A stretch of DNA of 64,000 nt from Stylophora pistillata (Eukaryota), in NCBI RefSeq assembly GCF_002571385.2, contig NW_019217807.1, positions 1,110,840-1,174,839 on the forward strand, written 5' to 3'. The notes beneath the pieces are model-generated. The model was given only the letters and a program-made list of their open reading frames with translations. It searched no databases and was not told where the DNA came from. The position numbers were made by a program, and so were the translations under genes. Below are positions 1,404 to 38,974 of this stretch, in pieces. Numbering within the stretch: the stretch's first letter is position 1; each line of letters begins with the position of its first letter.

Positions 1404-2770
1404 CATGTTGTTCATGCCCCTTTCACAAATATCTTAATCTCCACATCTCCAGGTTATTTGCCATACTTCAATGAAAATTTCTCTGGGTCCATTTATAACC
1501 CTGAGTGGACTCTATCTATCGAAATTAAAATAAAACCCAAACAAGTTTATACGATCGAAACTTTTCATCAGACTTTGAAAATTAGATGAACAAAGACGCT
1601 TCTAATTCGACGGACAATTCGTTTCATTACATTTTTTCGAGGAATGATTTTAAAACATCAGGCATTAACATTTGTAAGCGACCATCTATTTTCTCCTGTT
1701 GGAAACCAAATGAGATAAAATTTAAAATTTTAATCATCTTGGAAATTCCAAATTTTCAGTTTTAAACTTTTAAGACTTTTTGGTATTAAGTCTAATTTTT
1801 TGATTAACAAAAATGCGACCAGTTTTTTATTGCGTAGATTGAGCTACGACCCTTTCTTGGGACAGTAATTGGAACTATTACTGACCAAATTGATTGGAAG
1901 GACTCTGACTGTTTTGAGTCGTCTCACGGTCTATAATTAACACCAGTTCTGTAATAATGGGCATTTATGGAAGCGAATTCAATAACTACGTAAACCTTGG
2001 ATTACATTTAAAACTTAGAATGGAAATCAAAGAGTTCTTTCTAAATGATACAAATACAACATTCATATTTTATTTTGCTCCTCTGTTTGCTTTTAATAAA
2101 ACCTGCCTGCATCATTTTGAGAAAGCATGAAAAATTAATACCGTAATGATCAGAGGAGACTGAAGTTTCATCAAACTTACAAATTGAAATGTCAAGTTTA
2201 ATTTATATTTGTTTCCAAAATAGCTTGAAAGAAATTCAGCTGTCCATACTGGCAATTTTAATTTCGATTGTAAATTTTCACTTATTCTTCTTAAATAACA
2301 AAGTATGATTTTTACTTTTATGCGCATATCGTCTTTCCTTTAGAATCTGCTGCGAGCAGATGATAAACTTAATCCTTACAATAGTTTTTTGAACAGCAAT
2401 CTCTGCTCAGAGGAAGTTAGAACCCAGCGAGCTAAAGCTATCTCATTATTTACTTTAATTTTGTATTACAATTAACGATGCCATCTTTGATTTTCTTGTA
2501 GACGTTGTGTCTAAGGTGTTGAAGTGAACAATGAAACAACGACAGACCAACGATTAATCTCCATCGAAGCAATTTAAACTGACAAGAATCTGTGCAAGTT
2601 TTAGTTGCAACTCTTACCATACTGAGGTGTTGATTTTACCCCTTGTTTCTCAAAAGGATTACCAAGCTGAACTCAGGAAGTTTTTCGAAAAACCCTTGAA
2701 CGCGAGTTATCGAATCAAGCTGACGTAAACAATTTCCTCATTGTGGCTGTAGATCAAAGAAACGAATGTC

Positions 2771-3763
2771 ATGAGCGCCAACAGCAACTCTAGTTCGAAT
2801 CCGCCAGACAAGTTCGACACCACTCATATCGCCCTGTCGTGTACATTTGTAGTGTTGATAATTCTTTTAGCTATCGTGGGCAACACATGTGTCATCCTGG
2901 CATTTAAAAGATTCCGTCGACTTCGTCGTGTCACAAACTACTTTGTTGTTTCACTGGCTCTAACAGATATTCTGGTGGCTGTGATATCTATGCCAGTGTG
3001 GGCAGCTTACATAATATCTGGTCCATCGTTGTTTATACAAAGGCAGTTGATACAAATACTGTGGACCTCGACAGACATCATGGTCAGTGTGGCTTCAATA
3101 TGGCACTTAACTTTTGTCAGTATCGACCGTTACATATGTATAACGGGACCGCTGTATTATCATACACGTATGACCAGCAAGCGGGCTATATTGACGCTTG
3201 GGACCATATGGTGCTACTCAATCGTAGTGGCCTCTTTAGCGCCTACTTTCTGGGAGTTGGATCTCTACACCTTGATGATGGTTGTGCTGAATTATGCAGT
3301 CCCTGTCATTATAATCCTCTTTGCATACCTGAATATCTTCAGAGCTGCTCGTTATCAAGGAAAACAAATCGAGTTGACCATCAATGGAAAGGAAAGGCGT
3401 TTTTCAATTAGCGCCGAGGTAAAGGCAGCAAAGACGCTTGGAGTGGTGATTGGCGCTTTCATCATTTGTTGGTCTCCTTTTTTCGCGCTTAACTTAAACT
3501 ACTACATCTGCCATTGTCCCCCACCCCCTCTAGTTGTTTCAGTTGCCAAGTGGATGCATTTTGGAAATTCCATGCTCAATCCTCTTATCTACGGAGTAAT
3601 GAACAAGGATTTCAGAAACGCCTTCAAGAGTCTATTTACAGACCATTTTCAGAAAGCTTCTGGGTTGAAAGGCCGCAGCATGGGGACAAATGCAGATCAA
3701 AACAGCCGTGGAAGCAACGAAGAAGAAGACAAGATTCATTTGCAGAGTGACACAGGACTATAG
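2771..3763 (+). CDS. Class A (rhodopsin-like) aminergic-like GPCR, paralog 1 (330 aa, intronless CDS)
   Basis: Seven hydrophobic segments with GN (TM1), LALTD (TM2), D3.32 and SIDRY (TM3), W4.50, P5.50, KAAKTL/CWSPFF (TM6) and NPLIY (TM7). Ends in a PDZ-type T-G-L. A probable 5'UTR splice acceptor lies at 2500-2501. Confidence 0.93.
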   Translation: MSANSNSSSNPPDKFDTTHIALSCTFVVLIILLAIVGNTCVILAFKRFRRLRRVTNYFVVSLALTDILVAVISMPVWAAYIISGPSLFIQRQLIQILWTSTDIMVSVASIWHLTFVSIDRYICITGPLYYHTRMTSKRAILTLGTIWCYSIVVASLAPTFWELDLYTLMMVVLNYAVPVIIILFAYLNIFRAARYQGKQIELTINGKERRFSISAEVKAAKTLGVVIGAFIICWSPFFALNLNYYICHCPPPPLVVSVAKWMHFGNSMLNPLIYGVMNKDFRNAFKSLFTDHFQKASGLKGRSMGTNADQNSRGSNEEEDKIHLQSDTGL

Positions 3764-6579
3764 CTTGAATTACGTTGTTATTGTTTTATATCGAGTGAAA
3801 GTGTGATTTTGCATTGACCATCATCTACAAAAAAAATTCGATATTTTCCACCAATGTTGCATTCTGGGTTAAGGGCACGCTTAGAACTGTTCGAGTAAAT
3901 TTCATTACAATTGTATAAGTGTACTTTCGAAGTCTCCAATCGAAAAAAAAATGAATAACCCCTTGAAAGAACAGTTGAGTATGTCAAAAGGTGCCTTTTA
4001 TTTACTTCGAGGAACGAAAATATGTAACAATAGCATCACTTAGAGGCTCCACCCGCATCTTTCAAATAATATTTTACTAATAATAAAAAATATATTATTG
4101 TGCTCCTCATAGTAAAATATTTTCCCGTCTTAAGGGGAATCAGTCGTTCAACATGACAACCCCATCTTGTTTTATAGCAGTCGTATTTACTTTAGTATGA
4201 TCGTCAAATTACGAGGTAGAGATATTTATAATGTTCTCAGTGTTTTATCAATGACAAGTTGTGTTTGCCAATATACTTGATGCAATCCTTGACGTCTAAC
4301 AGCTCGTAGATCTTTATAGTCACTTAATAAAAGGCCGTTGTACAAGTTGTTGAGTCAAGGAATTCAACCATCGAGAAAGTTGTTAAGACATTTGTGGTGT
4401 ATTTAATACTGACATTAACAGTGTGTAAAACTCCGGGTTACAGCTCACACATGGCAGGAAAACTCAACTAACTCAATCGCACACAACCTTCTAGTCACGT
4501 GACGACTCTACTAGTCCCAGGACCCCACAACATTTCAGTAGAACTAGAACACTTCAGAGGCTCTTTTGTTTGCCCTCGTTGGTGAAAAATCAAAGGTGTC
4601 GTCAAATTTAAGCAAGGTAAAAAAACACTTGGAGCCATACCAGCCGTGGGTTAGTTTTAGGCTCTCCTCTTTGAGTTATCCAAAAATAAATCTGCTGCCA
4701 CCGACAAGACTGAGGACAAAATGAAGTTTTCTCCAAGATTTTAAACAGATAGAACAATGCCATCGATGACGTCATCTATTCAGTCCCTTTAGTTAAGAAC
4801 CAAACAAAATGCGTGCTGTATTAACATCCGTAGCAGTACTTTTATTCCTTGTGTTCATCTTAACTTGAAAAAAAAAAAACAATTCTAGTATTTTTTATTA
4901 TCGCTTAGTCAGCAAGCCAGTTAGAATTAGAACTGAATTTTGCAGGTATTCTTGCCTCTCTGAACTATATTTAGCTTTATCTCGGAAAAGCGAAAATTTA
5001 ATTTTACGCTTTGTAATGAATTTGTAATTTGTTAGTGCATCTGCAAATCAAGCTATTGGAAAGTTTTTATTGACTCCATCTGCTATGTGAGGAGAGCGCA
5101 TAGATGAGAAATATTCAATGAACATTGCATGCATGAATTGACCTTTGTCCTATTGTCTTCTTGGTTTATCTAGAGGCAAATAATATCACTTAAGCAGAAA
5201 GTGGTTCTTCCAACGTGAGTGTGTCTAGCCATTTGTTTTTCATTTGTCACTATAGGCGCTGAGTTTGCATAAATATTTCCCTTAAATATTCCGACGTTCC
5301 TCGTGGGCACTTGTGGGCAACTTGGAAGCAAAAAATGAAAAGATGAATGATAAATTATTTGGACAAAACAGCTTGAGCGAAAATAGAAATTACCACCATG
5401 AAACAGCAAAGACAAATATCAAAATCAGTTCAGTAGTTATTCAATGTCCTCTGAACTGGTTCTTCTAAGACACCATTCAAGAAGAAAAAGTAGAAAATCT
5501 GGAAAATCTTAACATGGCACCAAGCCAGACAGATGAAAGGTAAGCCTAATTTAATTAAAAATTCACATCCTCAAGTGGATATCATGATCCGTAAGTAATC
5601 CAAAATGACAGTAAATCTGTAGATTTTATAACATTGAACGTCACTGCACCCAAGAGTTGGCGACGTCAACTCGAGTAGAAAGTGTAATTCTCGCACGTAG
5701 ATGCTGTATTTTTTTCCCCGGGAAGGAAAAGACTTTGGTGTTCATACCAGCTTGGTGAGTATGCAAGACACTGTTGGAAGACATGCGTGTATCGGATAGC
5801 AAAAACTTTGAATCTAACTGAGGTTTCTTTGTCTACAACATTGCGTTCTAGGATTGTTTTTAGAGGGCACTGATTCACGGGTTTTTTAATCCTTGTTTTT
5901 TTTTAAGTAATTTATTTAATTAAACTAATTCGGGATGTCGAACTGGAGAAAAAAGATGATAACGGGTTGTTTTATCTCCATTTGTTCTCCCCACCCGTCG
6001 GGCAAAATATTCTCGTCCTTAAAGGGAGATGTAAAATTGCATGCATCTATGATTTAGCTATTCTTCATTTCAAATTTCGAAAATGGAGCGCCATTCAATA
6101 CTGTAGCAATAGGTTCTGAATCCCACTGAATCAGACTTTGTTTCAGGACTCGTGCAGGCAGGAATGTTTATTTGTTTTAATTTTCCCACATAACTCATCG
6201 ACTTTGCATTTTCATTTAGCCTTCCGATGACGTCATCATCGATTAGTTTTGCCAATTATTTCTCTTTACTACATTACTAAAGAATAAAAAAAGGCTCCAA
6301 GTGCTTCCTGATCTTGAATGACAGTTCGCACTTTCTTCGACTGAAAGGCAAACTTTGTTGAGCACCGGATTACTCTTATTTGTGAGGTTTCTCGAGATAT
6401 CTTGGTAATTTATTGTAGTATTTATGTGTTCCTTTATTCCTTTGTTTAACAACCGTCTTCATGGTCTTTTATTTCCACGAATGTTGAAAATTACTGAACT
6501 TCCAGGTGGTTTTGATTGCGGCCTTTCTCGCTCTAAGAATAGAGTGTCACATGGCCCTCTTGCTGTGTATTAAAATGAC

Positions 6580-7729
6580 TTTTTACTCGGGCTTCCGTAG
6601 GAAAGCCCGAGTCTAAAAATGCAAGCCGTTCTTGGTCGCCAAAAGGGTTCTTGGTCGCCAAAAGGGTTCTCGGTCGCCAAAAGGGGGGTCATGGTCCCAG
6701 GCGTTCCTTACTTAAACCGTGGAAACTAGGGATGAAAGTGCGACAACTTGTGTTGTCACGTGCTCGCTTTTCGTAAATAACATAATTTACAGAATGCCGT
6801 GTTTCGTGAAGACCGCTCATCTCGCATACAAACACTAAACAAATGAGCCATATGTAAAGTTCAAATTACGAAAATTCTGGCAAAACTGGAACAGCCGATG
6901 TAACAACAAACTATGATGCTGAGACGAAAACCTCACTGAAAAAATTAGAATGTTCGCGAGCACAACTTCGAAGGTGGCGCTAACAACAGCGAATTGGATT
7001 AGGATATTGACAGAAGCAACTTGAATAGCAAGGTTAAAGATTTAAGATCAGCTCTTCCGTTAAATATCCTGTTTCTGTTTTTGGTTTTTATTGGATTCAA
7101 TTCTCGTAAAGTACGATTTGGTATTTCTTACATAACCACTATTATTATTATACAAGCGATCGTGAATGTTGGTTAATTTGCTCAGTCTTCGCCTGGAGTT
7201 GTTAGTGCTTATAGAAGACATGATGATTACTATGATCTACTCGAAAAAGTTGTCAATATGACTAATGGACAGGAACATAATGATGTTACACTGTCAATAA
7301 AAGTACAACAATTCAGATCTCGGTATGCATAGTATGTAAAAAAAATAATAATCTTTATTTAGCAATAATTTCCATAAAATCCTCTACAATACAAAATATG
7401 AACAACGTAAAAAACGATCCAAAATAACTCACTTTCGGCTCACATCTACTCCTTTTTTTTTAATGTCAAAGCGTCTGGAAAACTATAAATAACGGAGTCG
7501 AATCTGAACAGATTCAAAGTCTAATAATCTGATAAGTAAAAGCATATCTAAAACTATACAGAAAAGAGAAAGGTGAATGGCAAATCTAGAACCCTTTATA
7601 CAAGGCTGCTAAAAATCATTAAACAATGTCAATGGCTCCCTAGTATGTATTTTATAATTGTACTCATGTTTTGTGCGAATGCTATAGCATTAAACGAAGC
7701 CCGAGTGAACCCTCCTCGAGCGTCTAGTT
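6580..7729. mobile_element. Non-autonomous Helentron/HINE (DINE-1-like) rolling-circle element
   Basis: Starts in a T run. 5' subterminal repeat ACTCGGGCTTC (6585-6595) forms a hairpin with 6603-6612. Three 19-bp tandem repeats at 6628-6684. 3' inverted subTIR GAAGCCCGAGT (7696-7706), ending CTAG-TT (7724-7729). Confidence 0.65.
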
Positions 7730-10249
7730 ATTATAGAAAGACTGAGAGATGTGAAAACTTATTATTTTTCTATTAGCTTTTTGGTCGTAACACGAAAAGT
7801 TGCCCAAAGATGAATACGTTACTTGAAAATTTGCATTATTCAAGTAATTTTAAATGTTTAAAAAAGTTGTTAGCAATAAAAGTAAACGAAATTCTAAACC
7901 ACATCTTCCATTGATATTTGAGGAATTTTGAATCAGTTGCATTTCTGGTATTATTTGATTTTTGTAACCTTCCAAGCTTTTAATGCTCATCCGAATTGCA
8001 TGTTGTAATTAAAAACTTGATTTTCGAAATGCAATTAGTTTGTTAAGATCTTTCTGACAGATGAGTGAACAACGAGAGAAAGATAAAACATCTTTCTTTT
8101 GAAAACTTGATGAAAAATTTCTCATTTCTTTACGACTGTTGTTGATCAGGCCAGTCTTATTAATTAGTGTTTTCCAATTTCAATGCAATATGAAAAGTCA
8201 GAACTAGATTGGATAAACTGGTACAATACCTTTGTCCAAATGAATGATCGGTTTTGTGTAAATGTTGTGTTGCCATGGTTTTTGTAGCTCATTACATGTG
8301 CTAACGGAAAATACAGGTAAAAATATTTGAATTTTCTTCTTTGAAAAATTGCAAACTGTCCATTTAACGTGACAAATTTCCTGACATACATGCTTAATTA
8401 ATATTTTTTGTTTAATTACATTCTCATAAGTTATTGTTCTTGTGGAAACTTAAAAAGTGTCAAACGAAATGAATTCAGCATATGAGTTCACATGTCAGCC
8501 GGCCTTGAACAGTTTGACGACATGGTATAAGATTTCAAAGTTATGAGACCGGTAAGTAAAAATGAACCTAAAGGTTATAAAAGCAATACAAGAGTAATCG
8601 TTGAAATGTTAAAGGCCCTATGCTAAAAATTACATGACACAATCCAATTAGCGAGTAAACGCTTTCCCTGAAATCGTTAGAACGTTTTTTCCCCTTTCGA
8701 TCGCTTTAGCATGACAAATCGAGTTTGCACAATCTGCTTGCAACATTTCCTGTTTAGTACCACTGATTTGAAACAAGTTTAGAACGTACACATAAAAGAT
8801 ATCTTACATGTCTAACTGGGCACGATACAAGTTTAGTATCTTGTACCTGCATAGATAAAATACGCCGACGAATCTTACATTTATGGAATACAATTAACTG
8901 CAAAACAATTAAAACGTTCAATTCGTCCAACTTTAATATTTTGTTCAGGTAACTTTACTTTAAACATTATTAAGTTGTCGATAATATGTAAAGCAGCTTT
9001 ATTCAGGAATTCAAGCTCAAGATCAGCAAGGTGATAAGACTAAGACGTTTTGAGGAAAATATGTGAAATAGCTGAGAACTTACTGAGTTAATTTGAAGAA
9101 GAAATGAAGAAATGAAGAAATGAAAAATAACTGTTAAAGGCGCTAATTTCATGGCAAAATCTTAAGCCACACATGTGATATTTCCGATTAAGGTACATAT
9201 TCGGTGAAATTCCAGTTAGGAATTACCTTCAAGCACGTGCCTGTGTACCAACCCGAGCATGGAAGCAGTTGTTTTTCAGGGTTCAATTCAACAGTAAACG
9301 TTCTTCTGCGGTTTTGTCGCAAATCGGAGATGGTGTCAACGGTAAATTGAATGTGGTTATTCGGTGTTGACGAATTTTCCCTAAAAAATATAGTGTCCAA
9401 CTGTTTGACTCGAACAGTTTGAGCGAAAAAGGGCGATTTATCCGAGATAGCATAAAGGCCTGGTGTAAGATAATTGTTCCAAATGAACGCTTTTTTCTTC
9501 GCGTTTGTTGAATTAATTCTACAAAATGATGCTTTGGTATCACAAAAGGAGTAAAAAATGAACGGGAAGGTTAAACGAAGAATTACAAATTTCCTCGCTG
9601 TCAGCTGTTTGAGCTCTAAGTTCCTGTTTGCATGCTTTTAAGTTGCCAAGAACTCAGTCTCCTTTTTTTTCTCTTAGCTCGTAAAAAATTCGCTTTCTAT
9701 ATGTCCCGAACATCTGCCTTATTTTGTTCTTTTTCTCTCTATTCATCGTCTTGAAATCTGTTTCTTCATTTATTCCTTTTTTTCGGTTTTTACAATGATG
9801 GATGATCTTTCGGAACATGACGATTACAGAGTAGTTATTAAACAATTTCATGTCGGCTGTAATCCCACAAACAGCATGCACAACACAATTACCGGAATAA
9901 ATTTCCGTTTAAAAATTGTCCTTGCATGTGAAGCCTAAGTAATTTGAGATTATTTTTATATGAAAGCCATTAACGATTACGGGATTTTCGGCTTTAGAAT
10001 GGATTCAAATGCTTGTCAACTCAATGAATCATATTCCCTTCAGGTAAACGCCAGCCTCCCATGTGCACAGATCACTTCGATGAATTCAAGACAAATAGGA
10101 AAAGTAAGAATAACAGCTCAGCCGATGATTGATATCAACGCATTTCAATTCAGTCGAATACGATGAAAAGGTTATAAATAGTTGTTTTTCCTGCTGTAAC
10201 TCACAGGAAACTTAAATTCGCCAAATTTAATTTAATTTTTTGTAAAAAG

Positions 10250-10515
10250 GGCGCTTTTCGAGTGAGTGTCGTAAAACCAAAACCAAGGCTTTTACGACGG
10301 CCAATCAAAAGAAAGGAAAATACTCGGAAGACCGAATGAGAATTTAAGGCAAGCAAACTGCCTCAGTAAAGCGCGGGAAAACGCGGGCGGTCAATTCGTT
10401 GTTGTAGTTAATTTGGAATTTGATTGGTTGATAAGGTGATGCGTTTTTTTGTGGACCAATCACAGAGCAAAGTAAAGCGAAACCATGGCAGTCCCGGATC
10501 TCAATTGAAAGTTGC
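10250..10515. repeat. High-copy interspersed repeat; related copies at about 53010-53390, 53850-54095 and 56050-56160
   Basis: Shared GAGTGT(C/T)GTAAAACCAAAACCAA, AAGCGCGGGAAAACG, TGATTGGTTGA and GGACCAATCACAGAGC. Confidence 0.6.
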
Positions 10516-11729
10516 TTTAATGCAGGCGTAGTCTTTTTAACATTTCTTGCTATCGAAATCAACTCCAGATTTAGATCGATCTGTTTTGCAACGATTTCAA
10601 TAGAATTGTTTGGGGAGACTTATTTGGCCAGGATGTATGAGGGGAGAAGGTTTCTCTGCATCTCATCTTGCGACGAACTTTATCTTCTAAGGCTCATTTC
10701 AAACTGAGCACGGAATCTCTCCCTTGCCTTGCCAATTCACGCCAATTTGATTCTACTGCCATGGAGAAGCAGGAAATTTGGGTAACTCTCTTTCATTTCC
10801 AACTGAGCAGGGAGCCTCTCGCGTCAATGCCAATCGCAATTTGATTCTACATCGACGGGGAAGCAAGAAATTTAACTCTCTTTCTTAATAACAAAAGCAA
10901 AACTTACCGCAGTTGAAAGCTTTCTCAAGGTTAAAAGGAATTGACAGTGATGAAAAGACTCTTGATTGCGTATAATCCTCTGCACTGAAACTGAAAGATA
11001 GTCGGTAATTTCACATCTACAGCCTGACACAACGTTACCACATTTAAAAAAAAACAATGGAATGAGATTGGAAAATTTTTAGAACATTGAATTCAAATTG
11101 CTCACACAAAAAAATACAAGCATACATTGGTGATAGCGTGCGAGACGGTTAGAGGACGAGTTAATGGCTTCGGAATGAATCTTCCGCCGGATTGTAAATA
11201 ACCGCCTACAAACAAGTGAAATGTTAATTGAGGGTTTTGTTGTAGGCATTCATGAGTCCCAGCGTTCTCGGAAGAAACTCAATTTATTGGTGACAGATGT
11301 GATGTCGTGAGAGATTAAGGCTTTTAATGCAGCCTTGAGTGTTCTGCATTAAGTGCTTTTCTTGAAATGGTCTGACTTATAACATCACTTATAGACATTA
11401 AATATACTTTGAGGTCTTCTCTTACGCATTAATGTTTCTCTGCGAGTGAAATTTGGACGTCAGTTTGGTTAACTTGTCCATCATGGTCTCAGATTAAGAC
11501 ATTACGGGCGTTTTAAGGTTTTATATTACGTAGTAATGCGTGATGCACTTTTCCAATTGATTTGACAAAGGCAGAAAGCCCTTACTACCTTACATTTTGC
11601 CTACAGCGTCTCAAACTCACCGGTCGTATCCCGCAAGACAGATCAAATTGACAAAAAAGGCCACTGAAAGAAGAAAGGAGAAGAAAACCAGGATAAAAAA
11701 AAAAGTATAGGAAAAGATAACAGCCGGAT

Positions 11730-12641
11730 ATGGCAAACGGTAACCGTTCAAATTCATCTTCAAACTCTCTGAGAGAATTTTCTGACGAATTTCGCATTGG
11801 AACTGCCACATTCACCATTGTTCTTATCTTGGCTACAGTATTTGGAAACGTTCTCGTCGTTGTCGCGTTTTCACGCTTCGCGCGGATCCGTACAGTGACA
11901 AACTACTTTGTTGTGTCATTAGCATGCACTGATCTCTGTGTGGCGTTATTCTCTATACCTGTATGGGTGGTATATCTCCTAACAGGACCCGTGTGGGTAT
12001 TTGAGGAAGACTTGTCACGTGTTTGGACCATGGTGGACATTCTAATAGGTACCGCATCCATCATGAATTTAATGGCGATCAGTTTTGATCGGGTTCTTTC
12101 CATCGTAACGACCATGCGTTATTCTGTTATCATGACTTCACGGAGAGCGATCTTTATCATATGCTGCGCTTGGATCTATTCTTCATGCATGGCCACTGCA
12201 GGCTTCTTTCTGTACGCTAAGCGCATTTTCAACCTCGTCGCTTTAATCATGTGCTTCTGCGTTCCACTGCTGGTAATAATCACTGCATACTCAATTGTGC
12301 TGAAAGTGGCGCTATATCACGTGAAACAAATACACGCAACAACGCCTGTGCAGTACCCAAGGAGTCATTATAACTTTTTAAGGGAGCTCAAAGCTGCTAA
12401 GACATTGGGAGTTGTTGTTGGCGCGTTTGTGGTATGTTGGCTGCCATTTGTTGTGATAAACATAATTTACAGTTTATGCGAGCCAAAGCACTGTCCTGTT
12501 GTCAATCCACAAGTGATATTGGTGACCAAGTGGATGCATTATGGTAATTCAATGATAAATCCCATAATATACACTGCCAAGAACAATGATTTTAGAAAAG
12601 CTTTCAAGACTTTAATTTTCGCATCAAATGCTCTCCTTTAA
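11730..12641 (+). CDS. Class A aminergic-like GPCR, paralog 2 (303 aa, intronless CDS)
   Basis: N-terminal N-glycosylation sequons, GN, LACTD, D3.32, SFDRV, KAAKTL, CWLPF and NPIIY. Clearly similar to paralog 1 (VTNYFVVSLA, KWMHxGNSM). Confidence 0.93.
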   Translation: MANGNRSNSSSNSLREFSDEFRIGTATFTIVLILATVFGNVLVVVAFSRFARIRTVTNYFVVSLACTDLCVALFSIPVWVVYLLTGPVWVFEEDLSRVWTMVDILIGTASIMNLMAISFDRVLSIVTTMRYSVIMTSRRAIFIICCAWIYSSCMATAGFFLYAKRIFNLVALIMCFCVPLLVIITAYSIVLKVALYHVKQIHATTPVQYPRSHYNFLRELKAAKTLGVVVGAFVVCWLPFVVINIIYSLCEPKHCPVVNPQVILVTKWMHYGNSMINPIIYTAKNNDFRKAFKTLIFASNALL

Positions 12642-13799
12642 GGTGAAGTACCGTAGTCACTAGCAAAAATCCAACAAACAAAAACGAAGGAGAAAAATAG
12701 TGACTCACAGAAAGCAATTGTCTTTTAAAGCTCTATCAGCTTTCGTTTACTTGTGTTCTCCACCTCATATCAGAACTGCCCCTAAATCATAGATGTTAAA
12801 AAAAATAGAAAAAAAAAACGTCGAATGGTTACGATGATTATGGAAAATTCATAGCAGTTTTAAAATGCGCAGCACTTCCATCAGTGGAAATTTAGTTCGC
12901 GCATGTTAGATTGAATTTGAAATTTGGAACCGCTAAAAATTGAAGGTAAGATGGCTCAACAAGTGTATGTATGCGCCTTGCCTGAGGAAATAGCAAATTT
13001 ACGCGCAGACATTGTCTTCTGCAGACATTGTCTCTGGTTGATGTTCAGTCTGAATGAATTGCATGTGCAGAATAGTAATTGAAAGTGGCGGCTTAAAGGT
13101 GTCTTTTTTTAAAGTGATACAGACAAGATTTCGTATAGTCTCCTTCGCACGCAGCCGCTTTTTGGAATGTCACGCAACCTCCCACTGCAACATTTCTTTC
13201 GGGGAAGCGTTGCGTGACATCTAAAAAAAAACTTATGCGTAGGAGATAGTTTTCGAATTGATTCGAATTTTTCTCTGCATAAACTGACAAATCTGGCTTT
13301 AACTCTCCCGTTTACTGTTGATTTCTGCACCACGACGTTTTAATCCGAATTGTTTTGAGCGGTGTGATCTGCGATTTCACTTCAGCACCGAAATGACAAA
13401 TAAGTCGTCCATTTCCTCTCTAACCCTCTTTGAAATAATTCCCCTGAACCACGTGGGTATTATGTATGAGCCTCTAATGCGATTTATTTTCTCAAGTGCT
13501 ATAGTAAATGAATAAAGTTGTTACAGTACTCCCCTTGGAACCAAAACTGCAGCCTTCCAGAATTTCTGCTCAAAATCGAATGCTCAGTTCAAAATTCAAA
13601 ATGGAGTCGCATAGCGGCCGATCTCAACACAATTATGAAAAGCGTCTTCAATGGAGTTAAAAACAATTCGGATTAAAACACTAACCTCTGTAAGATTTTC
13701 AGTAATGTTTCAAGTATTCTCTTGTGGTTGTTGCTTTGCTGGAAAAAATTCGGGCCTTTTCCAATTTGCAACCTAAGTTTTCAATGAAAACTTCTTAAC

Positions 13800-23908: not shown

Positions 23909-25361
23909 TTAAGTGGATGACCTGCTTTTCAGAGATGTCAAGCCCCAACTTCTGATGCTGGATAGTTGCCTATCGATTTCTGACCTTGTCACGGGCTGTG
24001 CCTTTCCAGTCACGCTAGAGTATGTTGCGCTGAAGAGATGTCTAAAGGCAGTCTTGAACTGCTTGTTCATTAGACCGTAGATAATTGGGTTGAGAACTGA
24101 ATTAAAGTAATGAAGCGCTTTCGCCACCATTACAGCTTCCATTTGAATCGGACATGCGCTGAAATCAAAGGGAGTGAGAGTCATTACATGGTCTGTCACG
24201 CATTGTTTGTTGAGGACGTACATTACGTTACAACTCATCGTCAGTCACTTTTTATCGCCGGAACGGAAGTCGGAGGATCTCGGTCCCCTCATGACGCTCT
24301 GTAATATTCTTATGAACAACCGACTTATTGAAAGTTAATTGAGTCATTTTTCTGGAGTTCCCCTTTCATACTCGATCGACAACAAATGACCCCCTCCCCC
24401 CCTGAAAACCATGAAATCTCCCTCTTTACCAAATCCTCCCCCTGCCAGGCGAGAAATAAGGACTGGCCTCTTAACTGAGAGTAAGGAGAGTGGAATGCGG
24501 TGGTCGTAAGTTCGATTCCCCATAGGGGCTAAGAATTTGCGAGGAGGAATTATGTATTATCATGGAGTTCACAAATCACAAAACTTACCGACAGAGAGCG
24601 TTAAAGAAATTCAGAAAGAAGAATGGGAACCAACAAAGCACAAAAGCCCCCATTACCACCCCCAGCGTCTTAGCGGCCTTCAGCTCCTTTGGTAGGCAGA
24701 ACTTTTTGGTTTTTTCTCCAATCTTGAGCAGCATTTTCTTCGCCTGTGTACGAGAAACTCTGAAAATCATAATGTAGGCGTAACTCATGATTAACACAGG
24801 CGCAACAAAACAGAGCGAAAACGCTGTCAATTGGTATGCGGTTGAGAATGACATATCCCAGGTGATCAGTTTGATGATGGTCATGGTTAGCGCAAAGGAC
24901 CACGCTGCACAAATCGCTACACGTGTCTTGGGCGTGGTCACAATGCTGTGGTAGGTCAGCGGAGAAGAGATACAGATGTAGCGCTCAATGCTGATAAGTA
25001 GAAGATGTGAGATGGAAGCCACACTGCATAAGATGTCCATCGACTGCCAGATCTTCTTCAGCCACAAGGAGTAAATCCAGGGTCGTCCTGTTAAGAGATA
25101 CGCTGCCCAAACCGGCATGGAAAACATCGCGACTAGGATGTCCGTCACTGCTAGGGACACCACGAGGTAATTGGTCACGTTGCGCAACTTCCGGAAAGAG
25201 ACAAACGCCCGGATGACGAGTGAGTTCCCGAGAAGAGTAAGAATTATGATGACAATCAGTAAAAATGTGGATATGAATCTCACAGTGAAGTCAAATGGTT
25301 GCATTTCCGCCCTGTGGATTATTGTGGAGTTTATGGTTGTGGCCACCGTCGGGTTTGCCAT
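23909..25361 (-). CDS. Class A aminergic-like GPCR, paralog 3 (340 aa, two coding exons)
   Basis: Exon 25361-24589 covers TM1-TM6 (LAVTD, D3.32, SIERY, CWFPFF). A phase-2 GTAAGT..TTTCAG intron spans 24588-24159. Exon 24158-23909 encodes ACPIQ..KALHYFNSVLNPIIY and the C-tail. The spliced frame is continuous (LC-R-ACP). A 5'UTR acceptor at 25375-25374 lies 12 nt before the ATG. Confidence 0.92.
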
Positions 25362-26124: not shown

Positions 26125-26865
26125 TTTATTTATATATTCATAAATACATAGCAGTTAAAAAACTGAATTGCGTATTTACTCACATAATACAGATTTTAAA
26201 ATTAAACTAATTTAGATATTAACTACTTAGTTATTAAAAAACGTTCAATCGGCTAATAAAAGGAAAGCTAAAATGAGTTCGCTTTAAGACATGAGGAAAT
26301 AATAAAACTATTCTTAAAACGAGTGGTTTTGAAGCGTTGTACATTAAAAGGTCGCGCACGCCTTAACAAGTAGGTAGTTTCATGTGTTGCTGGTATTAAC
26401 TTTTGAAGACGGTGATTGTTGTCATCTACAATTTTGTCGAAAAGTGACTCACATATTTCGTCATGATGGATGACTAATTCTTTAAATTTCATAATATCCA
26501 GGGCCTCATGATAGCTATGACCAGTACAGATAATGGACATTGCTCTCTTCTGTACGTGTTCTAATTCTCGCATTAAATATTTAGGCAAACTATAGTGAAA
26601 AACCGGTACTGCATAGTCCATGATTGATCTAATACAACTAGAATAAAAGAGCCCTCGATCAGTACGAGCAACCTTGGCTCTCTTAAGTTGAATCAAGAAA
26701 TATAATCTCTTAGAGGCTTTTTTAACGATTTCATTAATATGGGTATTCCAGGTCAAATTATTGGAGATATCAAGACCCAAAAGCTTACATTTTCTACCAC
26801 TTCTAAAGCATCGCCATTGATGAGAATGGGCACAAATTCTTGCTGGAACTTTGAAAAGGTGTCCT
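26125..26865 (-). mobile_element. 5'-truncated non-LTR retrotransposon (CR1/L2-group ORF2 C-terminus)
   Basis: LGLDISNNLTWNTHI..KASKRLYFL..FYSSCIRS.MDYA.PVFH..LE.VQKRA..T.RFKNSFI, followed by a 3'UTR with AATAAA on the minus strand at about 26131. Confidence 0.85.
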
Positions 26866-28756
26866 CTGCATCATTGTGTAATTTAGTATTACTAAAAGTA
26901 TTAAGTACCGAACTTCCGTAAAATCAACATTGAATACACATTCGATTGACACGACGTGATTTACAGAAAAGATATGAGCTTCGCAACTTGATACTTACGT
27001 TTTGGAGGAAAAATGCTTTCTTCGTGTTTTGAATTTACATCAGTTGTTACCGTCACATGTCAGTATGTAAATATTTGCTAAACGCTATCTCTCCTGTATT
27101 TGCTCAAAACTAGTGTTACGCATTCATTCTTCAAACTCCTGGACTGAACAATGGGTTTCAAACGCAGCTTTCACGCAGAGTACTGATTTCCGTGACATTC
27201 ATCGTATTTACATACACGAAATGTGAATTACTTCGTGAAATAGATTGATTTGAAAGATCTAACTTTTCGTGTTTTTTTTTTCTAGAAATTAGAGGAAGTT
27301 TTATCACGAATTGTAAACATCAGATGACACCATTCACATGAAAGGGTAAATAGTTTATCATGTTCATTGTGCCGGCGCTTTTGTGTTTCCTCTCTCAGTT
27401 TAGCCGGCGGCCTATTCACGATCTTTATTTGAATGAAACTATTTTCTTTGGTGGAAAAAAAAGGCAACAGTCATCTTGCATACATCGACTTGGGTTCATG
27501 CCTTTACTTGAAAATCATTTTAAATTCATCTTGGACGACCACGTAACATTTTCAGTTTTTTTGGTGCTAATGTATACCTGAGAGTAAAGCATTGCTGGAA
27601 GCTTGCCGAAAATTTGTAAAGCAAGCATTGTGCATGCACGAAAGAGTATGATGAATAATGTATTATCACAGGGGAATATCAACTGATTCTCTTGAATTTT
27701 CCAGTTTTTCGATGTAACTCGCGGCTTTTTTCTGTAGACCTGTGTCTGATTCCTAACGAAATGACGGCGTTGCAGTTTTAGTCCAGGCCATGATGGTTCA
27801 AAACATCTTACTTTTTCTTAAGTGTTAAAATTAAGGCAAGAGATTTGTGGTGACCTATCTCTTTTCAAGATATCTGCGCTCCTAACATATCACAACAAAG
27901 TTTTCTTTTCGTTCGTTTTGTTCACGAGCTAGGGTGACTGAACCAGTATCGTTCGTTGATGGGGAGTAAACACATGCTATGCAAACTTACCTAAAACCTG
28001 GATCGTTTCTGGATTTCAATTATTCTAGTAGAATCTGTCTGGATAATCAAAGAGTGTCGTGGCACTTTTTATCTGGTTTTACGCGGTCCTCACTAAAACC
28101 ATTGCGGTGCTGAATTGAATGTCCTGCAAATTTCCCCAAATGAGCTCTTAAAAACCAATTTCAAATCATTACACATGCATGTCACGTATAAACCGCAGCT
28201 AAATTTCTTCAGGGTTTTCCGGCTGTCAAAAGCACCAAAAACTATTAATTTTTATCGATATACGTCAGTCTTGCAAACTTTGAAGGGGGCCATTTTAACT
28301 TCAAACGATTTTTAATTGGCTTTGATGTGAAATTGCTGTGCATGGGGAATTCTAATTGCAAATTGACGTAACACCATAATGTACTTTGATGAAGGATTCT
28401 ATTTCAGTCATTTGGTACACTACGAAATAACCATTGACAGTAACTTTTATAATTTGTATGCACATATTGGTTGGACCACTTGCGGCTCTGGAGAAATCAT
28501 TTTAGTTAGTTACCTGAAAGCCAGCAATCGACATCTTAGTTGTGGAGGCTGTTCTGTTTAGTCTGTGGTGTAGTTCGATCAATAATGATACAGCCAGCTT
28601 TTTCTCCTTTGCGTCTAAAACATACACCAAATACGGAGGAACTACAAGGTTTATCATGATCCATCTGTTACATATTACCAATGAAAGTGTTATTGACAAT
28701 GTTTAATTTATGCTTCGGTAGCAAAAAATCTAAAATAATTTGGCAAGTTTAATCTT

Positions 28757-33213: not shown

Positions 33214-35722
33214 TTAGTCATCCTTTGCGCCATGTTTAATTGTTTTAACAAGGTCCAGATAGTTGAAGTTTCCATCGTCGTCAGCGTTCGCTAGGCGGAA
33301 CATCTCATCGCATTCATCGTCAGTGAACCTAAAGCAAAGTGTGATAGTCACGGATCAGTAACGCAACGTGAGCGACGTTTTCTTTTTCTTTTCATTTTCC
33401 TTTCAGGGAAGAAACCCTAAGGACGAAATTCCCGATTGTCAAAGCAGTATATACAGTTTAACTTTCTGTGACCTTTTGTGTGAGTGAGATGATTTGTGTG
33501 ACTAATTCTGAGAGAAGGAGAAGAAAAGTATAAACATTTTAGGAAAACTCTCGTTTTCCAAAGGAGATCATGGGATACTGAACTTAACAGAAATGAAACG
33601 AGCATAGTGATGCTTATGTATATCCCAGACACGATACCAACTATTTTCTTTCTTATAATTTTCATTAAATGATCCGCAACCCGATTAAATCGTCCACATG
33701 CTGACAGAAAGTTATCAAATTAACGCCATGTGTCAGACCGTGTTACGACGCAGTTGTTTACAAATGTCCATGCCTGTAGACGAATTTGGTATACATAATA
33801 TACATTCGATACATTCGTTTTCTAGTTAATCTGAATTACACAGCTTAACAAACAACTCACTTATATCTCGCAAAAAAATCCTTTAACCCTGAGCTTTTCC
33901 TATCATTTTTTCTGCCAAAACATAAAACCCCCGCGAGGTTAAATACATTTACTGTCATGCTGAGACATCTTGCCGAGAATGTAATCTTAGTTTGCGAGTT
34001 GTCTGTCGAAAAATCTACAGTTGCGATGAAGGTTAGCAAAAAATAGCAACACAAAATGCAATAGCCTGGCTCTTCTAGACGCAAAAAGCAAGAATTTTGT
34101 CACTGAGCTAAACGGATTTCGTTTAACTTGACAACATAACAAATCAACCACCCGAAACCGGCAAGCCACTTAATTTTATCATCGGCAGTTTCCCCGAGGC
34201 GTTACCTATTGTTATTCACCTTGCCTATAACGCTTGAAATTTTTGTTTTCCACCGCAGATTACGAGATTAACTCGTATTTTTTGCGTTTACTTTAATCAG
34301 GGCAGAATTTTTGGTAAACGGGTCTCTCTTCCTGCTGTACGCCACTGTTCGCACGAAAATGTCTTTAGCTCCCGCCGGGCTTGCGAATTTATTAGTTAGA
34401 TTTGAACTTTCAAATAAATCGCATCAGCTTTTGTTTAAGGCCTATGCAATTTTCCGTTTCATTCTATTACAAAATATATCTTGCCCTGTTGCAGTCTGAA
34501 GACTTTCAGCGTTAGCTCTAGCTATAGATAATGAATGAGGAGAAACTCTGTCCTGGCTAAATAATTGTTATCTCAGACCAATTTTACAGTCGCTGCCCGC
34601 ATAAAAAAACCCTTAATTCAACAACTTCAGTCTACGCGGCTGTCATATTTTATTTTCGCTAAATACCGCTATCGAGTTTGCTCTTCCTAAATGTTGTTAG
34701 TGTTAGGGTTGACGTCGATGGACTGATAGCTTCTCAGCAAATATAACTTCGACTCGGCGAACTTGAGAGGAGTTAACGCGCGTGTTGGCGTGGAATCGTG
34801 CGTGTTCAAGAATCGTGCGTGCTCGCTTCTCGAAGAAGGCCTTGATTTCTGGGTTCTATAATTTTAAGGTTTTAAGATAAAGAACTGTATCTATCCTGGC
34901 TTTCAACTGCTTAAGAACTAGAGTCCACTGTATCAGTGAGCTAACAGGGGACAAGTAAAACGGACTGGTACCAACCACTTTTCGTGCGAGTAATTTTTCG
35001 GAATTCTGGCCTTTTGTTATTGATTTAACTGGAGAAATCGTCACTCTTTCAACATAGGGTGTTATAATAGCTGAAAAATCGTAGACAAACAGCAGCATAT
35101 AGATACCTCGCCTCTAGATTCGAATTCCTGATTCAGGTGTTAAATGGGACGAAATTCACTACAAGAAGGGATATCTGATCGTAGACAAGCCTAATATACC
35201 CAAGATAACAAAGTGCTTCCTACTTGTACCGCGAAAGCCTCTTCCCTCCCGACTTTTTGTCTGCGTAATCTGTCAGGGTTAAGTGCTAGAGAGAATTTGA
35301 TAGTTCACTTTCTAATCTTACCTGTCTCCCATTCCCATTAACAAGGGTCGGAGCTTTTCCTCGTTCAGTACGCCCTTGCCTTCAAAATCAAACGAGGCGA
35401 ATGCATTTCGGATCATATCCTCAGGGTCTGTACCATTCAGTTTCTCGCCCATGAGCGTCAGGAACATGGTGAAATTCAACGGCCCAGACGCTTCGTCTAA
35501 CATTTCGACGATGTAGTCGTTAGACTCTTCCTTTCCCAGCGAGTTAAACATATCCTTCAGATCGGTGTCTTTGATGAATCCATCGCGATCCTGGTCGATC
35601 ATGCTGAACGCTTCTTTAAACTCCTGAATCTGCTGCTGATCGAACATGGCAAACACGTTGGATGTTGCTCTCTGAGCCTTCTTCTTTGAGCCGGCCTTTT
35701 TAGATTTCTTTTTAATGGACAT
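33214..35722 (-). CDS. MYL9: Myosin II regulatory light chain, copy A (171 aa; MYL9/MYL12/sqh-like)
   Basis: Exons 35722-35322 and 33328-33214 with a phase-2 GT-AG intron (GDR|FT). Contains the [10 protein letters not shown] phosphorylation site, [11 protein letters not shown]-hand [21 protein letters not shown] and C-terminal IKHGAKDD. The symbol marks the family only. Confidence 0.93.
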
Positions 35723-35885
35723 TTTAGCTCGATATGGTTGCGCTTTTCCACGAAAGCTTTTAGACACTACACAAAAAGTTGTTTAGCCACTCCGCTGCAA
35801 TTAGTCTCTCGTTGGGAAGTGTTTACAGATTTTTAAAACGCCGGTCGCAAACCGCGCTTTTGTGAACCTATTACAATACCCTTGA

Positions 35886-36965: not shown

Positions 36966-38974
36966 CTAATCGTCTTTTTCACCATGTTTTATAATCTTGG
37001 TGAATTCGTTGTAATTCAAATTCCCGTCGTCATCAACATTTGCATGAGTAAACATTTCATCGCATTCTTCTTCTGTAAACCTAAAATGTATCAAAAAACA
37101 AACAGCAGAATTATGAAGAGGATAATCTTACTGTAACCCTGACCTCCTCTTGCCAGCTTTGGCCGAGCGTTTGGGTGATCTGGGCAAAGCTATGCATACT
37201 TGTGGCATTTGCATAACCACAAGAATAACATCTGTGATCTTTGAAATGTAAATCCGACCGTTTATCATCGTGGCATTTAACATTTCAAGCACAATGAAAG
37301 AATGATAACAACTAGACTCGTATTCTCAGTTACAATAAACACATATGTTTTTAAAAGAATGGAAAGCAAATTGACTTGACTTTTAGTTGACCTCTTTGTA
37401 ATTAATTTAGTGTCATTTATCAGGGGCGGATCCAGGAATTTTTGATTGGGGGGGTCCAAACTTTGGTTCAGAAAGGACTTTTGGACTCTTTTGACGGAAA
37501 TTTACTTCTCCCCACACCCCCCACACCCCCTCCCACCAGTCGCGGTTGCACGATATAATTCCTTGGCCGCCTACCGTTTACTTGGATTCTTTAATTAAAA
37601 AAATCAGGCAGTTAAAAAGTGATATGTGATCCTGCGGATGCAAGAATTTCAGTCTCAAAGTTGTAAGCGTCAGGTCTGATAGGTGGGGGTACGAACCCCC
37701 CGGACCCTCCCCCCGGATCCGCCACTGTTTATGTCTGAATTGGCTCGAAACGTGAAGTACGTACTCCAATAAGAGTAAAAGTCTTTTGTGGGAGATGGAT
37801 TTGACTTCGATGAATCAAGGCTTTGTTTAAAGGTATATTTAATCTTGAATTTCATTTAGCTTTAACTAATTAGATGTTTTGCGATATCTATCTCCTTAAG
37901 TATTCTGGTATGTTTGATTTATAAACGCACTGCCCGACAAAATCTGTGTTCAAATACGTTGCTTGCGCTCTTCCAAGCAAAATTATGATTCGAACAGGGA
38001 CTCTCTACACAGACCTTACGATGTTCCGAAGTAAACCAAACAGGCCATGAAATCAACCGAAGAAAACATGTTACATTCTGCGTTTAGTTATTCTGAATAA
38101 GTCGTGGCTGTTTAAAATTCCACTTTTAAAAAGTACCTGACCCTCATAACTGTCAATAATGCCAAAGCCAATCTTCCTGTTTATTTCTCCTTTTTTTCAA
38201 CAAATCACAATCTAGAAATGTTATGTTGTCCTGGAGGTGCTAAATTACAATTCTTAGAAAAAATTTAGAAATGGCTCAGCTCATTGCCCAATCGTAACCA
38301 TACAAAACAGAGCAGTTGTTATTTTTTCACTGATTCCTGCATGTGGTATGAACCATGACCCCAACCTTAAACTTCTCATCAAAGCTGTTCTTATGTTAGA
38401 GCTGTGTCTGACTCCCCAAACATCTCTGCCGCCCCCGTCCCTCTTGTACAAATCCTGTAAGGATTTGCATCCTACGTGTGTTTCGCATGTAAAAAATCTG
38501 CAGCAAACCGCTTGCAGGGAATCAAGAAATAACGAGAAAGTGATAACAGCGTTATCACTGAACAACTAACCTGTCCCCAAGTTTCATTAACAGTGGTCGC
38601 ATCCTGTCCTCATTAATGATTCCACTGCCATTTGGATCAAAGGTAGTAAACGCACTCTTGATCATGTCTTCCGGATCGGTCCCATGCATGTTCTCCGAGA
38701 ACAGCGTCATGAACATCGTAAAATTGACGGCCCCCGTAGCTTCGCCTAGCATGTCTTCGATGTAGTCTTCCTTTTGAGGCCTTCCCAGGGAATTAAACAT
38801 ATCCGTCAGGTCTTTGGCGCTGATGATTCCATCTCTGTCCTGATCAATCACGTTGAATGCCTCTTTGAACTCGTGAATCTGCGTTTGGTCGAACATTGCG
38901 AAAACATTGGATGTCGCACGCTGCACTTTCTTTTTAGACGCACCCTTTTTCGATTTGGCGGCTCTCGAAGACAT
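36966..38974 (-). CDS. MYL9: Myosin II regulatory light chain, copy B (172 aa; MYL9/MYL12/sqh-like)
   Basis: Exons 38974-38571 and 37080-36966, with the same intron position and phase as copy [41 protein letters not shown] and C-terminal IKHGEKDD. The symbol marks the family only. Confidence 0.93.
37421..37727. mobile_element. MITE-like element in the intron of myosin RLC copy B
   Basis: Inverted termini CAG(G/T)GGCGGATCC, with TTTAT on both flanks. Confidence 0.55.

What the first reader, a model, noticed from the sequence alone, without database searches (positions are those of the whole stretch)
2771..25361. Three-gene GPCR cluster with an unusual pocket: D3.32 plus K7.39/H7.42, no TM3-ECL2 disulfide, no catechol serines
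Seen in sequence: counting back from D/ERx and NPxxY, all three paralogs keep the amine-binding D3.32, W3.28 and N6.55. All lack the near-universal C3.25 (Q, S and K instead) and have a very short Cys-free ECL2. All keep a Cys pair in ECL3, lack Ser at 5.42/5.43/5.46, and carry K7.39 and H7.42. Established: D3.32 with 7.39/7.43 coordinates the amine in aminergic receptors, and loss of the C3.25 disulfide is typical of melanocortin, cannabinoid and S1P/LPA receptors. Inference: K7.39 would neutralise D3.32, so these are probably not the octopamine, dopamine or histamine receptors they would be auto-annotated as. They may bind a zwitterion (amino acid, GABA, taurine) or another unknown cnidarian transmitter, or use a D-K lock.
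Basis: partly seen in the sequence, partly recalled or inferred. Interest (0 to 1): 0.72.

Follow-up and report, generated by a model that had tools for sequence, protein, structure and literature searches.

The report
Coral receptors with built-in amine plug
These three coral genes belong to a large cnidarian family of receptors that databases label as dopamine, octopamine or histamine receptors, but nearly all members carry a lysine predicted to fill the site where an amine would bind, so they likely respond to something other than classical monoamines.

Summary
All three class A GPCRs have D3.32, K7.39 and H7.42, no C3.25 and almost no ECL2. Gene 3 has two exons. At least 41 paralogues in this genome share the D3.32/K7.39/no-C3.25 signature, and so do anemone, octocoral and jellyfish relatives. 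Of 248 scored receptors with no C3.25 and an acid at 3.32, 242 have K7.39. Four others, from two independent lineages, carry the lysine at 7.42 instead. Three lineages changed D3.32 to E, and none changed it to a neutral residue. The rest of the pocket varies widely; H7.42, N6.55, W3.28 and the ECL3 cysteines are not family-wide. The best reading is a D3.32–lysine salt bridge (distance inferred, not measured) that occupies the amine site. These receptors would then not be classical monoamine receptors. The ligand is unknown; a zwitterion remains plausible. A smaller coral clade with C3.25, D3.32 and no such lysine is the better amine-receptor candidate. A cnidarian clade of this kind is already described; my ten literature searches did not find the signature.

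The parts
2771..3763 (+). GPCR gene 1, single coding exon, 330 aa; D102(3.32), K260(7.39), H263(7.42), F264(7.43)
   Evidence: ORF; Pfam 7tm_1 E 1e-46; numbering; contigs of 4 of 4 RNA-guessed runs cover about 2500-4300 with blank flanks; anemone orthologue P0024
11730..12641 (+). GPCR gene 2, single coding exon, 303 aa; D103(3.32), K267(7.39), H270(7.42)
   Evidence: ORF; Pfam 7tm_1 E 8e-50; anemone orthologues P0157 and P0160
24589..25361 (-). GPCR gene 3, exon 1 (TM1 to start of ECL3); D109(3.32), K164(4.60)
   Evidence: GT donor after 24589; contigs in runs X5 and X13 bridge 24589 to 24158
23909..24158 (-). GPCR gene 3, exon 2 (ECL3, TM7, C-tail); K271(7.39), A7.40, H274(7.42)
   Evidence: AG acceptor; the spliced 340-aa product is identical to P0373, which NCBI names 'histamine H2 receptor-like'
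19102..20514 (+). Intervening DUF3504 gene between genes 2 and 3 (not a receptor); intron 19229-19320; start not fixed
   Evidence: Pfam DUF3504 E 6e-11; the GT..AG joint is seen in 4 of 4 runs

Best explanation
These three genes encode class A receptors of a large cnidarian family in which a TM7 lysine likely forms a salt bridge with D3.32 and fills the site that a monoamine's ammonium group occupies in bilaterian amine receptors, so they are probably not classical monoamine receptors. Shown: D3.32, K7.39 and Y/F7.43 are as conserved as the activation microswitches among paralogues only about 32% identical, while the rest of the pocket varies; C3.25 and the ECL2 lid are absent. Inferred: the lysine acts as a built-in amine and a TM3-TM7 staple on the floor of an open pocket, like E3.33-R6.55 in the ghrelin receptor. 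Each paralogue's ligand would be chosen by the variable positions (2.60, 3.29, 4.60, 5.39, 6.55, 7.36, 7.42) and would be neutral, anionic or zwitterionic rather than a simple cation. Signalling is likely through Gs/cAMP, inferred only from the short ICL3 and the similarity to beta1AR, H2 and D1 receptors.
For: (1) Pooled count: 407 of 451 held sequences could be scored. Of 248 with no C3.25 and an acid at 3.32, 242 have K7.39, 4 have K7.42 instead, and 2 have neither. Of 147 with C3.25 and an acid, 145 have no basic residue at 7.39 or 7.42. (2) Representatives at 50% identity (138 of 139 new ones scored): 105 C/acid/no K7.39, 29 noC/acid/K7.39, 2 noC/acid/K7.42, 1 C/acid/K7.39, 1 C/no acid. 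(3) The K7.42 forms sit in two separate K7.39 clades: P0217+P0358 in the L006 subfamily (SH-aLRT 99), and P0351 in the window genes' own clade (98), with the trait columns removed. (4) D3.32 changed to E in three lineages (P0018/P0019, P0184, L023). In the ghrelin receptor, E124D and R283K keep function while Ala mutants lose it (PMC7438500 passages). (5) Among 42 own-genome paralogues (median TM identity 32%), 3.32 is acidic in 42/42 and 7.39 is K in 41/42, while 4.60, 5.39, 3.29 and 7.36 have top-residue shares of 12-21%. 41 of these 42 were picked by the D/K trait, so the informative part is the variability of the other positions. (6) 7x38 (= BW 7.39, N312) and D3x32 line the amine pocket in beta2AR and D1R. 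The model's nearest folds are beta1AR and D1R.
Against: The D-K distance was not measured, because the structure tool returns no coordinates. No ligand or signalling data exist for these genes. The searches were seeded from this clade and contain near-copies, so counts overstate independent events; there are only two lysine moves and three D-to-E changes. Two paralogues keep D3.32 with no lysine at 7.39 or 7.42 (L017, L056). Three other own-genome receptors have K7.39 without an acid at 3.32 (L048, L067, L078; outside the close clade). A zwitterion clamp predicts the same co-conservation. Monophyly of the D/K group has support of only 83 and is unresolved once the trait columns are dropped. 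The trees are quick trees with SH-aLRT only. Dopamine and epinephrine do induce coral larval settlement (PMC6381176 abstract), so some coral target for amines exists.
Confidence: 0.58

Rival explanations
1. Zwitterion clamp: D3.32 binds the amino group and K7.39 the carboxylate or sulfonate of amino acids, GABA, beta-alanine or taurine. The family would be a repertoire of amino-acid transmitter or chemosensory receptors, with side-chain selectivity from TM4-TM6. This can coexist with an apo D-K bridge.
For: It predicts the same co-conservation. MRGPRD also lacks C3.25, has a shallow solvent-exposed pocket, and binds beta-alanine between R3.30 and D5.37 (PMC9287403 passages). Anemones have chemoreceptors for glycine and proline (PMC3509440 passages). 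A second charge pair marks the gene-3 subfamily: all 38 K7.39 receptors with an acid at 5.39 have K/R at 4.60.
Against: In MRGPRD the two charges sit apart, on TM3 and TM5. Here they are predicted to be within direct reach of each other. Moving the lysine from 7.39 to 7.42 fits a fixed partner (D3.32) better than a ligand carboxylate. There is no binding data.
Confidence: 0.2
2. They are amine receptors after all: D3.32-Y7.43 binds an amine, and K7.39 swings away or is displaced.
For: D3.32, W3.28, W6.48, F6.51 and N6.55 are kept in all three genes, with Y7.43 in two. The best PDB matches by sequence and by fold are aminergic receptors. Goulty et al. speculate that the cnidarian-specific clade drives monoamine responses (PMC10244343 passages).
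Against: Only 1 of 147 C3.25/acid receptors scored has K7.39. The three genes have no TM5 serines. Renilla Ren1 and Ren2 have no identified amine ligand (PMC10533100 passage), but their membership in this clade was not tested.
Confidence: 0.11
3. Ligand-independent or proton-tuned receptors: the tethered lysine mimics an agonist amine and gives constitutive cAMP, modulated by protonation of H/E7.42.
For: 7.42 is H or E in 230 of 242 D/K receptors. The title of the Ren1 paper reports constitutive activity (seen only in a reference list).
Against: 7.42 is Q, T, A or V in 12 of 242. Forty or more paralogues with divergent pockets suggest many ligands. Ren1's membership is untested.
Confidence: 0.08
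4. The lysine forms a Schiff base with an aldehyde (retinal or another), with D3.32 as counter-ion, making these non-opsin covalent sensors.
For: There is a near-invariant TM7 lysine with an adjacent acid that can move one helical turn. The rhodopsin active-site lysine can be relocated with function retained (Devine 2013, as cited in PMC3879442 passages).
Against: The lysine is at 7.39, not the opsin position 7.43. There is no ECL2 lid. The nearest relatives are amine receptors, not opsins.
Confidence: 0.03

Closest known systems
Bilaterian aminergic GPCRs (beta1/beta2-adrenergic, D1, H2, 5-HT1A, octopamine beta)
   Same: Class A fold (Foldseek best hit beta1AR, TM-score about 0.73/0.80); D3.32, W3.28, W6.48, F6.51, N6.55, Y7.43; ECL3 Cys pair
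   Different: No C3.25 or ECL2 disulfide; ECL2 about 3 residues; K7.39 instead of N/F/T/V; H/E/Q7.42 instead of G; no TM5 serine triad in the three genes
Large cnidarian-specific clade of monoamine-related GPCRs (Goulty et al. 2023, PMC10244343; passages read)
   Same: Cnidarian expansion close to the monoamine receptors; function unknown
   Different: Membership was not tested against their sequences. The passages I saw give no pocket analysis, and 'aspart' has 0 hits in the main text. Supplements were not read.
Ghrelin receptor, E3.33-R6.55 salt bridge (PMC7438500; passages read)
   Same: A conserved acid-base pair across the pocket; conservative swaps are tolerated
   Different: Different positions (3.33/6.55 versus 3.32/7.39); a peptide receptor of another branch, with an ECL2 that covers part of the pocket
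MRGPRD beta-alanine receptor, and melanocortin/CB1 receptors lacking C3.25 (PMC9287403; passages read)
   Same: No C3.25-C45.50 disulfide and an open pocket; MRGPRD binds a zwitterion with an Arg/Asp pair
   Different: MRGPRD uses R3.30/D5.37 and a TM4-TM5 disulfide. No Cys lies between 4.60 and 5.39 in the 204 K7.39 receptors checked.
Opsin K7.43-E3.28 lock (recalled; a reference title on it was seen)
   Same: A TM3 acid paired with a TM7 lysine
   Different: Both partners are shifted by one helical turn; 7.43 is Y/F here; no ECL2 plug
Renilla Ren1/Ren2 aminergic-like receptors (seen only as a passage and reference titles in PMC10533100)
   Same: Cnidarian, aminergic-like, no amine ligand identified

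Membership tests
Class A (rhodopsin-like) GPCR | 7tm_1 profile, seven helices, N1.50/D2.50/R3.50/W4.50/P5.50/P6.50/NPxxY | tested here: met
Canonical aminergic receptor | D3.32 | tested here: met
Canonical aminergic receptor | W7.40 and Y7.43 next to D3.32 (motif recalled) | tested here: inconclusive
   Gene 2 has both; gene 1 has F7.43; gene 3 has A7.40
Canonical aminergic receptor | C3.25-C45.50 disulfide with a full ECL2 | tested here: not met
   Q/S/K at 3.25; ECL2 about 3 residues
Catecholamine/octopamine receptor | Serines at 5.42/5.43/5.46 | tested here: not met
   MVN, ALC, AFC
Canonical aminergic receptor | Groups with the bilaterian amine receptors in a tree | tested here: not met
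   The window genes form a cnidarian clade (SH-aLRT 98-99); the bilaterian-type rows form a separate branch (95-97)
Canonical aminergic receptor | Activation by a monoamine | not testable with these tools
   needs a heterologous assay
Goulty et al. cnidarian-specific monoamine-related clade | Falls inside their cnidarian-specific branch | not tested
   Their sequences were not fetched; consistent by description only
Opsin | K7.43 | tested here: not met
   7.43 is Y in 239 and F in 3 of 242
Melanocortin / S1P / LPA / cannabinoid receptors | Closest sequence or fold relatives lie in these families | tested here: not met
   None among the 60 PDB sequence hits or the Foldseek hits listed down to rank 50; the shared loss of C3.25 is an analogy
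Adenosine receptor | N6.55 with H7.43 and a non-acidic 3.32 (recalled) | tested here: not met
   N6.55 is present, but the His is at 7.42 and 3.32 is Asp

The most novel reading that the evidence does not exclude
A large pool of 'aminergic-like' cnidarian receptors is a distinct pharmacological class with a tethered lysine in the amine site, and it senses zwitterionic or anionic small molecules. It may preserve a state of the proto-monoamine receptor in which D3.32 first served as a salt-bridge partner. Bilaterian amine binding would then have arisen when loss of K7.39 freed the aspartate, and a single K7.39 substitution could turn these receptors into amine receptors.
Probability: 0.15. Interest if true: 0.85.

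Novelty: new variant of a known kind. Interest (0 to 1): 0.58.

Why it matters
Whether cnidarians have true monoamine receptors is a long-standing open question. Coral and anemone transcriptome studies rely on labels such as 'octopamine', 'dopamine' or 'histamine H2 receptor-like'; gene 3 and the Pocillopora orthologues of genes 1 and 2 carry exactly these labels. A two-residue signature splits the candidates into two groups. The larger group (at least 41 genes here) has a D3.32 that is probably already paired with a lysine. The smaller group (7 genes here, with C3.25, D3.32 and P7.42) has a free D3.32. That tells experimenters which receptors to screen with amines and which with amino acids, metabolites or extracts. 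It also gives point mutants (K7.39A, a K7.39-to-7.42 swap, beta2AR N312K) that test how the amine site arose.

Tried and rejected
Measuring the D3.32-K7.39 distance: the AlphaFold2 job gave confidence and secondary structure only, so the distance is inferred. Cluster-specific pocket: rejected. H7.42, N6.55, W3.28 and the ECL3 Cys pair as family markers: rejected; ECL3 has two Cys in 150 and none in 44 of 204. Gene 3 as a truncated pseudogene: rejected, it is spliced. P0057, which looked like K7.39 without an acid, is a gene model missing the TM2-TM3 segment. The 3.25 column of the alignment was shifted by a gap, so 3.25 was recounted from R3.50. Monophyly of the D/K group: neither shown nor rejected. 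The careful tree did not finish and a quick tree was used. Expression: no holder run is on record as RNA. Gene 2 was barely covered in the four runs laid, which were chosen with gene 1, so this says nothing about gene 2. The ESM Atlas returned mostly cnidarian 7tm_1 clusters and had no structure. Earlier findings of the scan: none. Literature: ten searches; none listed a paper describing this D3.32/K7.39 signature. One search (K7.39 with D3.32) gave 0 papers, but generic-number notation is hard to search and subscription papers are not held. The Ren1 paper and Devine 2013 are not held. The sponge monoamine preprint has no hits for cnidaria or 3.32. The placozoan preprint and Thiel 2024 were read as passages and gave no data on this clade; Thiel cloned receptors linked to the neuropeptide cluster or to orphan clusters. 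No supplements were read. The GPCR trees and sequence files of Goulty 2023 and of the placozoan preprint could settle clade membership.
Full report
Observation. The window holds three rhodopsin-family GPCR genes: 2771-3763 (+, 330 aa), 11730-12641 (+, 303 aa) and a minus-strand gene whose first exon is 25361-24589. A GT-AG intron leads to a second exon, 24158-23909, giving 340 aa. That product is letter-for-letter the protein NCBI calls 'histamine H2 receptor-like [Stylophora pistillata]', and single contigs of 2 of 4 laid runs bridge the intron. The organism is therefore a stony coral. The W4.50-P5.50 span is 32-35 residues. The AlphaFold2 model of gene 1 (149-row alignment, mean pLDDT 88.2, pTM 0.85) leaves about three residues between TM4 and TM5. 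Small additions: gene 1 has F7.43, where most of its orthologues have Y; gene 3 has A7.40 and a second lysine at 4.60.

The cluster. Each gene has its own relatives in sea anemones. With two upstream paralogues and octocoral genes, the three form a clade (SH-aLRT 98), so the duplications are older than the coral-anemone split. The upstream members lie about 53-70 kb before the window on the same contig: one intact single-exon gene, one two-exon gene, and a broken copy with stops and frame changes. Linkage in other corals is inferred from orthologues that share a longest-contig length (for example P0006, P0061 and P0133 at 1,823,789). A fused 638-aa Pocillopora model, the sum of 330 and 308, points the same way. 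A DUF3504 gene sits between genes 2 and 3.

The signature is family-wide. A search of the own genome scored 130 of 2289 candidates and gave 82 matches. I examined 81 frames. Of the 72 with clean anchors, 37 are no-C3.25/acid-3.32/K7.39, 8 are C3.25/acid/no K, 2 are no-C/acid/no K and 1 is no-C/no-acid/K; the other 24 have neither trait. With relaxed anchors the D/K set is 41 of 81, spread over many contigs; this is a lower bound. Named carriers include Nematostella, Exaiptasia, Actinia, Dendronephthya, Xenia and the scyphozoan Sanderia malayensis. Among 42 own-genome paralogues (the 41 plus L056; median TM identity 32%), positions 3.32, 7.39 and 7.43 rank with N7.49, W6.48 and R3.50. By contrast, 2.60, 3.29, 4.60, 5.39 and 7.36 have top-residue shares of 12-24%, N6.55 40%, W3.28 43% and H7.42 69%. 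The set was picked on D and K, so the point of this table is how variable the rest of the pocket is.

Coupling of the acid and the lysine. Pooling everything held, 407 of 451 sequences could be numbered by motif; 44 were skipped as truncated or for odd motifs. Of 248 without C3.25 but with an acid at 3.32, 242 have K7.39, four have lost it and carry K7.42, and two have neither. Of 147 with C3.25 and an acid, 145 have no basic residue at either site. The K7.42 forms are in register, with W7.40 and Y7.43 kept. They arose twice: P0217/P0358 (70% identical to each other) inside the L006 subfamily, and P0351/P0352 inside the clade of the window genes. Both placements hold when columns 3.25, 3.32, 7.39, 7.42 and ECL2 are removed (SH-aLRT 99 and 98). 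D3.32 became E in three lineages and was never neutral in an intact clade member; the one apparent exception, P0057, is a gene model with a deletion. These are few independent events, and the pool contains near-copies. Still, loss at 7.39 with gain at 7.42, twice, is what a fixed intramolecular partner predicts.

Mechanism. In beta2AR and D1R, D3x32 binds the ligand amine and 7x38 (BW 7.39; N312) is one of three selectivity hotspots in the amine pocket (PMC13150006 passages). These receptors are the model's nearest folds. A lysine at 7.39, or one turn lower at 7.42, would put its ammonium about where the ligand's ammonium sits. This step is inference; no coordinates were available. The closest functional analogy I could document is the ghrelin receptor's E3.33-R6.55 bridge, which divides the pocket, is required for function and tolerates D and K swaps (PMC7438500 passages). 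I therefore commit to a built-in amine plug or TM3-TM7 staple at the floor of an open pocket (0.58), with ligand choice made by the variable shell. The zwitterion clamp is the main rival (0.20): MRGPRD also lacks C3.25 and binds beta-alanine between an Arg and an Asp, and anemones sense glycine and proline. Amine receptors after all (0.11), constitutive or pH-tuned receptors (0.08) and a Schiff-base sensor (0.03) follow. In the gene-3 subfamily a second pair appears: all 38 K7.39 receptors with an acid at 5.39 have K/R4.60. Gene 3 itself has K4.60 with Q5.39, so its pocket has a net positive charge and is the best candidate for an anionic ligand. Gs coupling is only inferred from similarity to beta1AR, H2 and D1.

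Comparison with what is known. Goulty et al. 2023 describe a large cnidarian-specific clade next to the monoamine receptors, of unknown function, and speculate that it mediates monoamine responses. These genes very probably belong to it, but I did not test that with their sequences. The genes fail three tested features of canonical aminergic receptors (disulfide/ECL2, TM5 serines, tree position) and meet one (D3.32). In my trees, the no-C3.25 group and the C3.25 group fall on two sides of a branch with support 83 after six long or odd rows were dropped. Without the trait columns the split is unresolved, so whether K7.39 is a cnidarian gain or an older state is open. A separate cnidarian clade with C3.25, D3.32 and P7.42, and as a rule no lysine (7 genes in this genome; SH-aLRT 99-100), has a free aspartate and is the better place to look for cnidarian amine receptors. 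Renilla Ren1 and Ren2 have no identified amine ligand; I could not obtain the papers or sequences.

Novelty and verdict. The receptor family is known and auto-annotated. I did not find the D3.32/K7.39 signature or its compensatory moves in ten searches of the held library, which lacks most subscription journals and handles residue notation poorly. New variant of a known kind; interest 0.58.

Noticed in passing
L025, L029, L050, L060, L066, L075, L080 (own genome); P0238, P0273, P0293, P0331, P0350: A second cnidarian clade with C3.25, W3.28, D3.32, a long ECL2 and P7.42, lacking K7.39 except in P0293. Its D3.32 is free, so it is the better candidate for real amine binding.
   Followed up: partly
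P0217, P0358, P0371, P0372; P0351, P0352: Two independent lineages in which the lysine moved from 7.39 to 7.42. L046 (with C3.25) has R7.42 beside D3.32.
   Followed up: yes
window 23909-25361; L003, L014, P0162 group: K/R4.60 pairs with E5.39 in the gene-3 subfamily (38 of 38 with E5.39). Gene 3's own orthologues have Q5.39. In the E7.42 subfamily, 27 of 35 have K/R4.60.
   Followed up: partly
L051:5491-6454 (-), L083:3726-5493 (-), L003: Two more intact paralogues and one broken copy (stops, frame changes) lie about 53-70 kb upstream of the window. An unrelated class A GPCR lies at L083:1537-2448 (+).
   Followed up: partly
L048, L067, L078: Own-genome GPCRs with K7.39 but F or G at 3.32, outside the close clade; the counter-charge is unknown.
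   Followed up: no
window 19102-20514 (+): A spliced, apparently transcribed DUF3504/QRICH1-like gene inside the receptor cluster.
   Followed up: partly
window 26268-26870 (-): A 200-aa frame with a Pfam ALKBH8_N hit (E 5e-8). It looks like the C-terminal remnant of a non-LTR retroelement (recalled, not tested).
   Followed up: no
window 35318-35782 (-) and 38555-39097 (-): Two tandem EF-hand genes resembling myosin regulatory light chains (recognised by eye, not tested).
   Followed up: no
window 51592-52317 (+): An exon of a probable MFS-type transporter (by eye, not tested).
   Followed up: no
window 56272-61999 (-): Two tandem trypsin-like serine protease genes, with a thrombospondin-type exon at 61625-61999 (by eye, not tested).
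   Followed up: no
P0389, P0390, P0393: The protein collection puts genes 1 and 2 (about 43% identical) in one 90% cluster, probably because a fused 638-aa Pocillopora meandrina model links them.
   Followed up: no
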